64,000 bases of DNA, taken from a phage. The notes under the pieces were generated by a model. That model was given only the letters and a program-made list of their open reading frames with translations, had not been told where the DNA came from and ran no database searches. Both the position numbers and the translations under genes were made by a program. Position 1 is the stretch's first letter. Each line of letters opens with the position of its first letter. This document shows positions 32,420 to 43,806 of the stretch, piece by piece. The stretch lies in the sequence record PZ445430.1. The stretch is one strand, 5' to 3'.

Positions 32420-33272
32420 ATAAATTAGAGAACAGCGAGCCGATTACGCTGAGTGAGTTTAGTGATTCCTACTAGGATAGCTACTCCACTGAATAGAGTC
32501 GGTGAGTTGGAGACTAGTAAGTACTCTGAGAGAGGCTACGAGCTAACGCTTATTGCTATTGATAGGGAACTGAAAATCTGCGGAAAACTCGGGAGCTGTC
32601 CCGAAATCTCGTAAACTCTTCTCTAGTTTATGTTAGTGGGGTGTCGAACTGACTTATGTGATAACACTGCCGTCCTAGTATAAACGGTAATATCAAACCG
32701 TAACTGGTGGAAGATGCAGGTTCGAATCCTGCGGTCGGAAAGAATCAGATAACTCGGGCTTATACCGGATAAGCATTCGCTGCTGTAGTACATACTATGA
32801 CGGTTCAGGAGGTACGCCTCCTGATCAGTATTAGGTTAGAATCGAAACAGCTAAACCACGAGGAAACCTGACGGCCTCAACCAAACTCGGAACTCGGGAT
32901 CACTGCCTAGTGTGTACCCCGTTTAACCTGAGACTAGGCATCCAGCTTCGCATCGAAAATCGGAGGTGCGATTCTAACAGACCGCGTGAATATGAGAGTG
33001 GGAAACGCTGACATGAGAGATGTCACTAATGGTGCCCAATAGTACAGGTAATTCGCGATAATTCCTGTTGAGCGGCAGCAGTAGGCTGGGAGTCATGACC
33101 TAAGCCTAACCGAGTTCTTCACATACGGAGAACATAACCACAAAGTCACCCTGACTTAAACTGGAAGATATTGTCTGACGGAAGGGCTGCAGAGCTTAAT
33201 CTGAGGGGGCTGACCCTACCTACCGTCGGGTATCTTTAAGAGCTTTTATAAGAGTTCTTAAAAATACCTAAA
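32420..33272 (+). ncRNA. candidate large structured non-coding RNA (about 850 nt, promoter-driven, ORF-free)
   Basis: Promoter 32385-32413; no ORF of 60 aa or more on either strand; GC-richer than flanks; many local hairpins (e.g. GGAGGTACGCCTCC, CGGGAGCTGTCCCG); ends at tRNA-Arg. Confidence 0.35.
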
Positions 33273-36543: not shown

Positions 36544-36570
36544 ATAGCCCTCGCTTAGAGGGCTATTATA
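36544..36570 (+). terminator. hairpin after pnuC
   Basis: ATAGCCCTC-GCTTA-GAGGGCTAT. Confidence 0.45.
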
Positions 36571-36583
36571 CAGAAATTTTCAC

Positions 36584-36612
36584 TTGCTTAATATAGAAAA
36601 TTTCTGTATAAT
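36584..36612 (+). promoter_or_regulatory. sigma70-type promoter
   Basis: TTGCTT, 17 bp, TATAAT. Confidence 0.6.
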
Positions 36613-36642
36613 ATATTTATAAATTCGAGAGAGGAATCAAAC

Positions 36643-36990: not shown

Positions 36991-37084
36991 GGAAGATTAA
37001 CCCTAATGGTAAGGGAGCTGTTTGCTAAACAGCCAGTAGCTGTGGAGACACGGTGTGCCAGTTCGAATCTGGCATCTTCCTCCA
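36991..37084 (+). tRNA. tRNA-Ser (anticodon GCT), class II
   Basis: Acceptor GGAAGAT/ATCTTCC, anticodon stem GCTGT/ACAGC with loop TTGCTAA, long variable arm, T-loop TTCGAAT, CCA; starts about 8 nt after promoter 36948-36976. Confidence 0.7.
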
Positions 37085-43054: not shown

Positions 43055-43267
43055 ATGATGAAAACTCCTATAACTGATATCTGGTTAGCTGTTAATACGT
43101 TAACTAAAGAGTATGTGTTTATAGAGTATGGTCAGAGGTATGACCAAAAGATGTATAATCTCATACTTCCAGTATCCGCTAATGAAGTTTATGATTTAAT
43201 CCTGAGATCTACGGAAGAGCAAATCGACTTGGTGACGAAAACCACTTGGAAAGTGGCTGACTTGTGA
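43055..43267 (+). CDS. doubtful small ORF overlapping tRNA-Ser
   Basis: 70 aa ORF whose last 55 nt overlap the tRNA at 43213-43305. Confidence 0.2.
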   Translation: MMKTPITDIWLAVNTLTKEYVFIEYGQRYDQKMYNLILPVSANEVYDLILRSTEEQIDLVTKTTWKVADL

Positions 43268-43305
43268 AAGCAGGCTTGAGAGTTCGAATCTCTCTTCTTC
43301 CGCCA
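43213..43305 (+). tRNA. tRNA-Ser (anticodon GGA), class II
   Basis: Acceptor GGAAGAG/TTCTTCC, anticodon loop TTGGAAA, long variable arm, T-arm GAGAG-TTCGAAT-CTCTC, discriminator G, CCA. Confidence 0.6.
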
Positions 43306-43319
43306 AACAAAATTTATAG

Positions 43320-43414
43320 GGTAGGTCAATCCAACGGCTGGCGCTGGACTCCGACTTGAAATCGGTTGATCGTAGTGATACGGTGTAAGGGTTCGATCCC
43401 CTTACCTACCCCCA
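43320..43414 (+). tRNA. tRNA-Ser (anticodon TGA), class II
   Basis: Acceptor GGTAGGT/ACCTACC, anticodon stem CCGA/TCGG loop CTTGAAA, long variable arm, T-arm AAGGG-TTCGATC-CCCTT, CCA. Confidence 0.6.
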
Positions 43415-43729
43415 AATCTTGAAGTATGCCGGAATCGGTAGACGGGGCTTCCTAAAGGGCGTAAGAGGAACATCCACTCCTCATAAGATACCCGAAAACG
43501 AGGCTGAGATAAATGGTCTATCTCGTGAAGGTTCAAGTCCTTCTGCTTCTTGATATTCAATGGCTCAAAGAGTAACGGTGCACCTTTCTAGAGAATTTTC
43601 TGGGCGAGAATCCAGAAGTAATCAACTAGTTGTTAGTGTGATGAGTTTCGGAGAGCCGCCACAATTGAAGTCTTTAGAATGGGTATCGCCCTTTAGCCCC
43701 TCCGAAAGGGATAACTAGAGATTTCAATT

Positions 43730-43806
43730 GTGGCTATATCATAATTGGTTAATGATCCTGATTGTGAATCAGGCCTATGTGGATTCGAATTCCACTAGCC
43801 ACCCCA
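43730..43806 (+). tRNA. tRNA-His (anticodon GTG)
   Basis: Acceptor GTGGCTA/TAGCCAC, D-arm TCAT-AATTGGTTA-ATGA, anticodon stem CCTGA/TCAGG loop TTGTGAA, T-arm GTGGA-TTCGAAT-TCCAC, discriminator C, CCA. Confidence 0.7.

What the first reader, a model, noticed from the sequence alone, without database searches (positions are those of the whole stretch)
43655..43736. Perfect 12 bp inverted repeat whose right arm is the 5' acceptor strand of tRNA-His
GCCACAATTGAA (43655-43666) is the exact reverse complement of TTCAATTGTGGC (43723-43734), and the right arm overlaps the start of tRNA-His (GTGGCTA...). A nested CCCTTT...AAAGGG repeat lies inside. In a precursor transcript this stem would compete with acceptor-stem formation, suggesting a maturation-control structure or a protein-binding palindrome.
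Basis: seen in the sequence. Interest (0 to 1): 0.5.

Follow-up and report, generated by a model that had tools for sequence, protein, structure and literature searches.

The report
Processing helix upstream of phage tRNA-His
The inverted repeat is a real, evolutionarily maintained 20-base-pair RNA helix that closes the T5-type "RNA III" spacer between a small stable RNA and tRNA-His in a T5-like coliphage, and it most likely serves as a double-strand cutting site that frees the neighbouring RNAs rather than as a protein-binding palindrome.

Summary
The window is Escherichia phage SuperGirl, a T5-like Epseptimavirus. The repeat exists. The right arm is as stated; the left arm is 43658-43669, not 43655-43666. 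Counting two G.U pairs, it extends to a 20-bp helix, 43658-43677 with 43715-43734.

A perfect 12-mer repeat alone is within chance for this window. Comparison with relatives shows it is real. T5 and BF23 GenBank records annotate "RNAIII, stable RNA with unknown functions" at this position, between RNAI (which ends in CCA) and tRNA-His.

Across T5-like phages the sequence enclosed by the arms takes at least seven largely non-alignable forms, 4 to about 110 nt long. One form is only a hairpin with a GCAA loop. A closing helix of about 19-21 bp is always kept: 97.7% of cells paired, and 10 of 20 pairs show compensatory changes. Mismatches are almost all G.U on the tRNA strand, so this is an RNA element.

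The CAATTG palindrome is not conserved. No other tRNA in the window has such a helix.

The RNA ends annotated in T5 lie inside the duplex and leave 2-nt 3' overhangs. This points to RNase III cleavage, which is inferred here and not tested. The annotated CDS at 43560-43718 is spurious.

The parts
43658..43677 (+). Left arm of the 20-bp helix. Its first 4 nt (G-CCA, 43658-43661) are the discriminator and CCA end of the RNA I homologue.
   Evidence: covariation
43715..43734 (+). Right arm of the 20-bp helix. Its last 5 nt (GTGGC, 43730-43734) are nucleotides 1-5 of tRNA-His, and 43729 is U-1.
43678..43714 (+). Enclosed 37-nt 'type A' cassette with small hairpins, including CCCTTT 43689-43694 and AAAGGG 43705-43710. 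This is the hypervariable part; relatives carry other, largely non-alignable sequences here.
   Evidence: Only one variant base was seen within type A (L018), so the inner hairpins are untested.
43666..43728 (+). Predicted mature RNA III-like hairpin RNA (63 nt, 12-bp stem, 2-nt 3' overhang). The ends are placed by transferring the annotated T5 RNAIII ends.
   Evidence: T5 annotation; BF23 annotation; register transfer. This is an inference, not a measurement in this phage.
43665..43666 (+). Predicted cut on the 5' strand of the helix, between pairs 8 and 9. It would leave RNA I with a 4-nt CAAU trailer.
   Evidence: by analogy with the T5 RNAIII 5' end at L002:727
43728..43729 (+). Predicted cut on the 3' strand, between U-2 and U-1 of pre-tRNA-His. 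It is staggered 2 bp from the other cut.
   Evidence: by analogy with the T5 RNAIII 3' end at L002:832 and the tRNA-His start at 833
43730..43806 (+). tRNA-His (GUG). The acceptor stem is GUGGCUA/UAGCCAC, with C73 and an encoded CCA. There is no encoded G-1; position -1 is T.
43562..43661 (+). Homologue of T5 RNAI: a rod-like hairpin with a terminal stem GGCUC/GAGCC, discriminator G and a CCA 3' end. Its helix abuts the 20-bp helix with no spacer.
   Evidence: The terminal stem covaries: GGCCC/GGGCC in Sugarland and GGGCC/GGCUC in DU_PP_V.
43417..43561 (+). Homologue of T5 'RNA1' (annotated as a tRNA-like stable RNA), directly upstream of RNA I.
   Evidence: T-arm-like GAAGGTTCAAGTCCTTC at 43527-43543
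43560..43718 (+). 52-codon ORF annotated as a hypothetical protein (bas29_0121) in the GenBank record. It is not a gene; it lies over RNA I and the hairpin.
   Evidence: In relatives the ORF from the same ATG is 10, 22, 28, 41, 49, 52, 59 or 67 codons long, with unrelated C-termini.

Best explanation
What it is (shown). The inverted repeat is the closing helix of the SuperGirl counterpart of the phage T5 'RNA III' gene. RNA III is the spacer RNA lying between the CCA end of the stable RNA I and tRNA-His, within the polycistronic tRNA-cluster transcript. In the + strand RNA it forms 20 consecutive base pairs. These pairs take in the discriminator and CCA of RNA I, the 4-nt trailer, the whole 5' leader of tRNA-His, and tRNA-His nucleotides 1-5. 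Selection acts on the helix itself, not on what it encloses.

How it most likely works (inferred). The helix is a two-turn double-stranded RNA substrate for host RNase III. One staggered double cut would fall 8-9 bp in from the open end, predicted at 43665/43666 and 43728/43729. That cut would do three things.
1. It would release RNA I with a 4-nt trailer that 3' exonucleases can trim back to CCA.
2. It would remove the strand that otherwise outcompetes the tRNA-His acceptor stem.
3. It would excise the remaining 12-bp hairpin as the 'stable RNA III', which would then be mainly a by-product.

More speculatively, the cut may leave tRNA-His with a 5'-phosphorylated U-1. That would supply the extra 5' nucleotide that tRNA-His needs but that these phages do not encode as G-1.
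For: Identity and position.
- The window is 100% identical to phage SuperGirl MZ501105.
- T5 records AY692264 and AY543070 and BF23 record AJ604530 annotate, in this order: RNA1, RNAI (107 nt, ending GCCGCCA), RNAIII ('stable RNA with unknown functions') and tRNA-His.
- The junction sequence GAGAGCCGCCACAATTGA and the right arm TTCAATTGTGGC are shared between T5 and the window.

Selection on the helix.
- At least seven interior forms were found (A, B, C, D, E, F, G), with 4 to about 110 nt enclosed.
- Each form keeps a 19-21-bp closing helix.
- On 11 distinct arm pairs extracted purely by position, 97.7% of cells pair, against 84% in shuffles and 31-46% when the partners are slid. Ten of 20 pairs carry changes on both sides, and the covariation score is 0.446 against 0.185 in shuffles (0 of 500 shuffles reach it).
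- Sugarlandvirus adds an independent U-A to C-G swap.
- S124 carries only a 19-bp hairpin capped by GCAA. The interior cargo is therefore dispensable.

RNA on the + strand.
- About 10 independent G.U positions occur on the + strand, against 3 A.C positions (my tally by eye).
- The + strand fold is 8 kcal/mol better than the - strand fold.

Specificity.
- tRNA-His is the only one of 30 tRNA-like 5' ends in the window with such a helix.

RNase III.
- The helix is about two turns long.
- In T5 the annotated RNAIII 5' end (L002:727) pairs with position 830, and the RNA ends at 832. tRNA-His is annotated from 833, and the RNA I side ends at 726. Both products therefore carry 2-nt 3' overhangs.
- The RNAIII 5' end lies inside a perfect duplex. 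E. coli has no 5'-to-3' exonuclease (established knowledge), so that end must be a direct endonucleolytic cut in double-stranded RNA.
- RNase III is already implicated in phage T4 tRNA maturation (PMC4810235, its references 47 and 48).

Competition with the tRNA fold.
- The full helix beats the cloverleaf by about 9 kcal/mol in the precursor.

U-1.
- Position -1 is T in all Demerecviridae examined.
- G-1 is encoded in two unrelated enterobacterial phages.
- The T5 and BF23 records annotate a 78-nt tRNA-His that starts at U-1.
- The -1 nucleotide mainly serves to position a 5'-phosphate that is critical for HisRS (PMC9976931).
Against: - No experimental end mapping or rnc-dependence data were available for this phage or for T5. 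The only evidence for the cut positions is GenBank feature coordinates of unknown experimental basis. From memory, early papers gave RNA III as about 80 nt rather than the annotated 106 nt.
- If the annotators added U-1 to tRNA-His by convention, the overhang would be 3 nt and the RNase III signature would be weaker.
- The inner stem left after the predicted cut would vary from 11 to 14 bp among cassette types (my count from the helices). The register relative to RNA I's CCA also shifts by 2 nt in Sugarlandvirus. The geometry is therefore not rigid.
- RNase III sequence determinants and antideterminants were not evaluated.
- The more distant Proteus phage PL1 has only a 10-bp hairpin at the tRNA-His 5' end.
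- Larger cassettes keep T-loop-like hairpins with covarying stems. RNA III may therefore have a function of its own in some phages.
Confidence: 0.55

Rival explanations
1. RNA III is a trans-acting small RNA, or a decoy, with its own function. On this view the 20-bp helix is only a protective closing stem that makes it exonuclease-resistant. Its 3' end comes from RNase P cutting pre-tRNA-His, and its 5' end from some other endonuclease.
For: - T5 and BF23 annotate RNAIII as a stable RNA that accumulates.
- Cassettes B, C, D, F and G fold into 2-3 internal hairpins.
- They contain T-loop-like motifs. The loop is UUCGCUA in types B and C. It is CUGAUCA, with covarying stems GGU/GCC, GGU/ACC and GGA/UCC, in types F, G and D.
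- Stable RNAs of unknown role also sit in the T4 tRNA cluster (from memory).
Against: - The interior is swapped among largely non-alignable forms between phages that are otherwise over 95% identical. In S124 it is reduced to a bare tetraloop hairpin.
- The only universally conserved feature is the helix, and the helix extends beyond the mature RNA into RNA I's CCA and into tRNA-His. A protective stem would not need that extension.
- The annotated 5' end lies within duplex RNA.
Confidence: 0.22
2. This is the first reader's reading: a maturation-control switch. The helix exists to sequester tRNA-His nucleotides 1-5 and so to delay or regulate tRNA-His maturation by RNase P.
For: - In folding, the helix outcompetes the acceptor stem by about 9 kcal/mol.
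- The helix is transcribed before the tRNA's 3' acceptor strand.
- The helix is unique to tRNA-His in the window.
Against: - The overlap with the tRNA is not conserved in extent. It is 5 nt in Markadamsvirinae and Hongcheonvirus but 2 nt in Sugarlandvirus and in the Proteus phage.
- No ligand, sensor or alternative pairing partner was seen.
- Nearest-neighbour models ignore tRNA tertiary stabilisation.
- This reading overlaps with the RNase III model, in which removing the competitor strand is a consequence of the cut rather than a regulated step.
Confidence: 0.12
3. A DNA-level element: a protein-binding palindrome, a cruciform, or a recombination or homing-endonuclease site that flanks an exchangeable cassette.
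For: - The arms flank a segment that is exchanged among relatives.
- RNA I types and RNA III types assort independently, so the conserved junction behaves as a recombination joint.
- HNH endonuclease genes lie nearby in T5.
- CAATTG is itself a palindrome.
Against: - The non-Watson-Crick positions are G.U on the + strand. They would be A.C mismatches in the other strand or in a cruciform.
- The CAATTG palindrome is lost through compensatory inter-arm changes.
- The cassette-specific inner 8-9 bp of the helix are complementary in every cassette. Recombination joints do not require that.
Confidence: 0.05
4. Chance complementarity, arising because RNA I ends in GCCA-C and tRNA-His begins with GTGGC.
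For: - Perfect 12-mer inverted repeats occur by chance in this window.
- 5 of the 12 pairs are fixed by the neighbouring genes.
Against: - The helix is 20 bp long, and it is maintained with compensatory changes in 10 of 20 pairs across seven cassette types and three subfamily-level lineages.
Confidence: 0.01

Closest known systems
Phage T5 / BF23 'RNAIII' (misc_RNA rnaIII, 'stable RNA with unknown functions'; AY543070, AY692264, AJ604530)
   Same: - It occupies the same slot: RNA1, then RNAI (with a CCA end), then RNAIII, then tRNA-His.
- The outer 12 nt of both arms are identical.
- The closing helix is 20 bp in both.
- It lies on the same strand.
   Different: - The 37 nt enclosed here cannot be aligned with the 80 nt enclosed in T5.
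- The predicted mature RNA is 63 nt here against 106 nt in T5.
- It is unannotated in SuperGirl, where a CDS is called over it.
RNase III processing stems formed by leader-trailer pairing: rRNA operon 16S/23S stems, phage T7 early-mRNA sites, and the RNase III step in phage T4 tRNA maturation (PMC4810235, its references 47 and 48)
   Same: - It is a roughly 20-bp duplex made from sequences that flank an excised RNA within a polycistronic stable-RNA precursor.
- The annotated product ends in T5 have 2-nt 3' overhangs.
- It sits in a phage tRNA cluster that depends on host RNases.
   Different: - Here the duplex bridges the 3' end of one stable RNA and the 5' end of a tRNA, and it reaches into both mature sequences.
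- Cleavage by RNase III has not been demonstrated.
- The excised piece, not the flanks, is the 'spacer'.
Bacterial pre-tRNA-His 5' maturation, in which a genome-encoded G-1 is retained by atypical RNase P cleavage and G-1:C73 is the HisRS identity element (PMC9976931)
   Same: The acceptor stem GUGGCUA/UAGCCAC, C73 and CCA match the host type (this comparison with E. coli tRNA-His is from memory).
   Different: Position -1 is U and cannot pair with C73. The usual RNase P route to an 8-bp acceptor stem is therefore not expected. A long leader helix unique to this tRNA ends exactly there.
Phage T4 stable RNAs 'species 1 and 2' (rnaC/rnaD) in the T4 tRNA cluster (from memory; not tested here)
   Same: They are small stable RNAs of unknown function, co-transcribed and co-processed with phage tRNAs.
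   Different: No sequence or structure comparison was made. Rfam has no matching family for the region studied here.

Membership tests
T5-type RNAIII stable-RNA gene | Lies between RNAI (3' CCA) and tRNA-His on the tRNA-coding strand of a T5-like phage | tested here: met
T5-type RNAIII stable-RNA gene | Sequence homology to T5 RNAIII along its length | tested here: not met
   Only the terminal arms align. BLAST matches of T5-type records stop at window 43669 and resume at about 43718. The interiors differ.
T5-type RNAIII stable-RNA gene | Long closing helix that joins the RNA I trailer to the tRNA-His leader | tested here: met
T5-type RNAIII stable-RNA gene | Accumulates as a discrete stable RNA in infected cells | not testable with these tools
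   No expression data are available. The only source is the GenBank notes for T5 and BF23.
RNase III processing site | Largely regular double-stranded RNA of about two helical turns (at least about 20 bp) | tested here: met
   20 contiguous pairs here, and 19-21 in every cassette type
RNase III processing site | Staggered cuts that leave 2-nt 3' overhangs | tested here: inconclusive
   The annotated T5 ends fit exactly, but the experimental basis of those coordinates is unknown.
RNase III processing site | Cleavage depends on rnc, and the proximal and distal boxes are free of antideterminants | not tested
   This needs in vitro or in vivo assays. The box rules were not evaluated.
Intrinsic (Rho-independent) terminator | GC-rich hairpin followed by a U tract | tested here: not met
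   No terminator-like site was found at 43658-43740. The stem runs straight into the tRNA body.
Palindromic protein-binding or restriction-type site (CAATTG) | Conservation of the self-complementary core sequence | tested here: not met
   The core is CAAGTG/CACTTG in DU_PP_V, CAATTA/TAATTG in S124 and AAATTT in Sugarland.
Any curated Rfam family | Covariance-model match | tested here: not met
   Nothing other than tRNA matches at the gathering threshold. Between 43554 and 43729, a search at E up to 10 returns only a noise hit (snoR120, E = 9.8).
Protein-coding gene (bas29_0121) | Open reading frame conserved in relatives | tested here: not met
   The ORF is 10-67 codons long in relatives, with unrelated C-termini.

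The most novel reading that the evidence does not exclude
[quoted passage not shown] RNase III would cut a dedicated leader helix between U-2 and U-1. This would yield a tRNA-His carrying a non-canonical 5'-phosphorylated U-1 in place of the encoded G-1. The same cut would mature the 3' side of RNA I and release RNA III as a by-product. On this reading a helix, not a base pair with C73, defines the -1 nucleotide.
Probability: 0.25. Interest if true: 0.7.

Novelty: new member of a known kind. Interest (0 to 1): 0.42.

Why it matters
T5 RNA III has been carried in database records for about two decades as a stable RNA with unknown functions. The comparison made here shows that the enclosed sequence is interchangeable and even dispensable. 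The conserved part is a two-turn helix that ties RNA I's CCA end to the tRNA-His 5' end.

This turns an open question into a concrete, testable processing model: RNase III dependence, and the identity of the -1 nucleotide of a phage tRNA-His that lacks an encoded G-1.

There is also a practical consequence. Many T5-like genome records call hypothetical proteins across RNA I and RNA III, and those annotations should be replaced by ncRNA features. The conserved arms also mark a recombination joint between exchangeable RNA cassettes.

Tried and rejected
- **Rfam.** Searches at the gathering threshold and at E up to 10 found no family for the hairpin or for RNA I.
- **Chance.** Chance alone could explain a 12-mer repeat, so I relied on comparative data instead.
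- **Metagenome scan.** The scan with the 17-mer junction pattern returned 94 loci. About ten were T5-like and the rest were chance matches lacking the right arm. They added only a few cassette variants.
- **Terminator and promoter readings.** There is no terminator. One weak promoter-like match at 43716-43745 is at background level.
- **Coding reading of 43560-43718.** Rejected.
- **Long-range pairing.** A 10-nt perfect complementarity between RNA1-like 43452-43461 and the cassette at 43687-43696 (pair I9) is at chance level. It is not conserved: S124 and Sw2 keep the left motif without a partner.
- **Literature.** Five searches found no open-access text describing T5 RNA I or RNA III structure or processing. 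Only the GenBank notes were available, plus a review statement on RNase III in T4 tRNA maturation.
- **Alignments.** The first arm alignment (A1) had a construct one base too long. It was discarded and redone as A2.
- **Excluded locus.** Klebsiella phage vB_Kpn_3 (L143) has a sequencing gap inside the element and was not used.
- **Sugarlandvirus.** The helices of the three Sugarlandvirus loci (L138, L152, L153) have a shifted register, so they were kept out of the pair statistics and treated as independent instances.

Full report
**Source and observation**

The window is 100% identical to Escherichia phage SuperGirl (MZ501105; Demerecviridae, Epseptimavirus), a T5-like phage. The finding lies inside its large tRNA cluster of 27 ARAGORN tRNAs.

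The inverted repeat is real.
- TTCAATTGTGGC is at 43723-43734, as stated.
- GCCACAATTGAA is at 43658-43669, 3 nt to the right of the coordinates given.
- The right arm covers the first five bases of tRNA-His, whose G1 is 43730.
- The nested CCCTTT (43689-43694) and AAAGGG (43705-43710) are present.

The repeat is longer than reported. It spans 20 nt on each side, 43658-43677 with 43715-43734. Its two non-Watson-Crick positions are both G.U on the + strand. The RNA therefore forms 20 uninterrupted pairs. The hairpin folds at -36.8 kcal/mol with z = -7.4. The complementary strand folds 8 kcal/mol worse.

A perfect 12-mer repeat is not by itself beyond chance here. There are six such loci in the window, and Markov simulations give a mean of 1.5 hits. 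Two things make this one special. First, none of the other 29 tRNA-like 5' ends in the window has more than a 10-bp helix, and the background 95th percentile is 11 bp. Second, the comparative evidence below.

**What sits there**

The T5 GenBank records (AY692264, AY543070) and the BF23 tRNA-region record (AJ604530) annotate four features in a row downstream of the two tRNA-Ser genes:
- RNA1, 'tRNA-like stable RNA'
- RNAI, 107 nt, 'stable RNA with unknown functions', ending ...GAGAGCC-G-CCA
- RNAIII, 106 nt, 'stable RNA with unknown functions'
- tRNA-His, 78 nt

The window has the same order.
- The RNA1-like element is at 43417-43561.
- The RNA I homologue is at 43562-43661. It has a terminal stem GGCUC/GAGCC, discriminator G and a CCA end.
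- The hairpin follows, and then tRNA-His.

The left arm therefore begins with the discriminator and CCA of RNA I. The right arm ends with tRNA-His nucleotides 1-5. The hairpin is the positional homologue of RNAIII.

Rfam has no family for RNA I or RNA III. SuperGirl's record instead calls a 52-codon CDS at 43560-43718. In relatives the same ATG opens frames of 10 to 67 codons with unrelated C-termini. That CDS is spurious.

**Comparative anatomy**

I collected the locus from IMG/VR, from metagenomes and from GenBank phages. The sequence enclosed by the arms is hypervariable. Lengths below run from RNA I's CCA end to the tRNA start.

| Type | Example | Length (nt) |
|---|---|---|
| A | this window, smaug, STG2 | 68 |
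| B | T5 and most records | 111 |
| C | bastian, L011 | 138 |
| D | chee130_1, L113 | 126 |
| E | S124 | 33 |
| F | Sugarlandvirus | about 145 |
| G | Pectobacterium phage DU_PP_V | about 122 |

Type E is a 19-bp hairpin capped by a GCAA tetraloop.

RNA I also comes in two interior versions. These assort independently of the RNA III type, so the conserved junction GAGAGCCGCCACAATTGA behaves as a mosaic joint.

Despite this turnover, every type keeps a 19-21-bp closing helix. I extracted 11 distinct arm pairs strictly by position and counted pairs.
- 97.7% of the 220 cells form standard pairs, against 84% in shuffles and 31-46% when the partners are slid.
- 10 of 20 pairs carry changes on both sides.
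- The covariation score is 0.446 against 0.185 in shuffles, with 0 of 500 shuffles reaching it.

The outer pairs, although nearly invariant, also covary.
- CAATTG/CAATTG becomes CAAGTG/CACTTG in DU_PP_V and CAATTA/TAATTG in S124.
- Within Sugarlandvirus a U-A pair becomes C-G.

The palindromic core is therefore not what is conserved. Pairing between the arms is. Non-canonical positions are overwhelmingly G.U on the tRNA-coding strand: about ten independent positions against three A.C (my tally by eye). This, with the fold asymmetry, places the constraint on the + strand RNA and argues against a DNA palindrome or cruciform.

**Mechanism**

Shown: the helix is a selected RNA structure, and it is the only conserved feature of 'RNA III'. 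In nearest-neighbour folding of the precursor it forms at the expense of the tRNA-His acceptor stem. Enforcing the cloverleaf costs about 9 kcal/mol.

Inferred: it is an RNase III site. The argument has four steps.
1. The helix is two turns long in every cassette.
2. In T5 the annotated RNAIII 5' end (L002:727) pairs with 830, and the RNA ends at 832. tRNA-His is annotated from 833 (U-1), and the RNA I side would end at 726. Both products therefore carry exactly 2-nt 3' overhangs.
3. That 5' end lies inside a perfect duplex. E. coli has no 5'-to-3' exonuclease (established knowledge). The end must therefore come from an endonuclease that cuts double-stranded RNA.
4. RNase III is already known to take part in phage T4 tRNA maturation (PMC4810235, citing McClain 1979 and a 1983 Biochemistry paper).

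Transferred to the window, the cuts fall at 43665/43666 and 43728/43729. The products would be RNA I with a CAAU trailer, a 63-nt RNA III-like hairpin (43666-43728), and tRNA-His with U-1.

A further, more speculative link concerns the -1 nucleotide.
- tRNA-His is the only tRNA that needs an extra 5' nucleotide. Bacteria normally encode it as G-1 paired to C73, and it serves mainly to position a 5'-phosphate for HisRS (PMC9976931).
- All Demerecviridae tRNA-His genes examined have T at -1.
- Two unrelated enterobacterial phages encode G-1.
- The helix is unique to tRNA-His.
- An RNase III cut between -2 and -1 would give a 5'-phosphorylated U-1 without RNase P.

**Caveats**

- The cut positions rest on GenBank coordinates whose experimental basis I could not retrieve. 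Five literature searches found no open text on T5 RNA I or RNA III.
- If U-1 was added to the tRNA feature by convention, the overhang would be 3 nt.
- The inner stem left after the predicted cut would range from 11 to 14 bp among types (my count from the helices).
- The register relative to RNA I's CCA shifts in Sugarlandvirus. There CCA pairs with U-1, G1 and G2, so only 2 nt of the tRNA are included.
- The distant Proteus phage PL1 has only a 10-bp hairpin.
- The larger cassettes keep T-loop-like hairpins with covarying stems. RNA III may have an additional function in some phages.

**Comparison with known systems and verdict**

The feature is a new, unannotated member of the T5 RNAIII class, with a non-homologous interior. 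It works most like the leader-trailer RNase III stems of stable-RNA operons. It is not a terminator, not a conserved protein-binding palindrome, not coding, and not in Rfam.

Interest is moderate. The object has been annotated in T5 since 2004. What is new is the demonstration that only the helix is conserved, together with its exclusive association with a tRNA-His that lacks an encoded G-1. That gives a concrete, testable model for a long-unexplained stable RNA.

Noticed in passing
window 43729 (position -1 of tRNA-His); L002:833; L138; L144; L145; compare L150:143 and L151:157: All T5-like (Demerecviridae) tRNA-His genes examined have T, not G, at position -1. C73 is kept, except in Sugarlandvirus, which has U73. 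Kolesnikvirus SB18 and an Erwinia jumbo phage do encode G-1. The T5 and BF23 GenBank records annotate a 78-nt tRNA-His that starts at U-1.
   Followed up: partly
window 43213-43305 and 43320-43414: Two class-II tRNA-Ser genes (anticodons GGA and UGA) are missed by ARAGORN and by the Rfam tRNA model at gathering score. They show up only as sub-threshold tRNA-Sec matches (38.3 and 26.5 bits). Both are annotated in the SuperGirl record.
   Followed up: partly
window 43417-43561: Homologue of T5 'RNA1' (tRNA-like stable RNA). It has a tRNA-Leu-like D-arm (CCGGAATCGGTAGACGG) and a T-arm (GAAGGTTCAAGTCCTTC), with about 60 extra nt between them. No tool calls it as a tRNA.
   Followed up: partly
window 43562-43661; L002:616-722; L132, L139, L140: RNA I exists in two versions with conserved ends and unrelated interiors (window-type and T5-type). 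These combine freely with the different RNA III cassettes. The junction GAGAGCCGCCACAATTGA therefore behaves as a recombination joint.
   Followed up: partly
window 43560-43718: The GenBank CDS bas29_0121 (52 aa, hypothetical protein) overlies RNA I and the hairpin. In relatives the frame is 10-67 codons long with unrelated C-termini. Similar spurious CDS calls occur in Sw2, Stitch, KookSpook and Sugarland.
   Followed up: yes
L136:~390-500, L137, L141:~440-560, L142 (upstream of RNA I): Some Epseptimaviruses carry an extra element of about 115 nt between RNA1 and RNA I, or in place of RNA1. It reads AAGTGCTTCTAATGACC...TATAAATTATATATGAAGGG... and looks like a promoter followed by a structured RNA. 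It is absent from the window.
   Followed up: no
L147:437-524 (Escherichia phage SelmaRatti): A hybrid 'tRNA-His': a normal 5' half through the anticodon arm is fused to a foreign variable arm, T-arm and 3' end (CTAGCAGCTCCA). That 3' end cannot pair with the GTGGCTA 5' strand. This is probably a deletion or recombination product.
   Followed up: no
window 36564-36581 / 36596-36613; also 28321-28333/28522-28534, 30846-30858/30894-30906 and 25917-25928/26010-26021: Other perfect inverted repeats of 12-18 nt. The longest is TATTATACAGAAATTTTC / GAAAATTTCTGTATAATA, with 14 nt between the arms, upstream of the tRNA-Ser at 36991.
   Followed up: no
window 43452-43461 and 43687-43696: A perfect 10-nt complementarity (CTAAAGGGCG / CGCCCTTTAG) between the RNA1-like element and the type A cassette. 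It is at chance level for a 1-kb region. It is not conserved: S124 and Sw2 keep the left motif without the partner.
   Followed up: partly
RNA III cassettes in L002, L011, L142, L113, L138, L144: The hairpin next to the right arm looks like a T-arm. In types B and C the loop is UUCGCUA. In types F, G and D the loop is CUGAUCA with covarying stems GGU/GCC, GGU/ACC and GGA/UCC. This hints that the larger cassettes descend from a tRNA-like element.
   Followed up: partly
window 32669-32740: A borderline Rfam tRNA match (29.3 bits against a gathering score of 29) that ARAGORN does not call.
   Followed up: no
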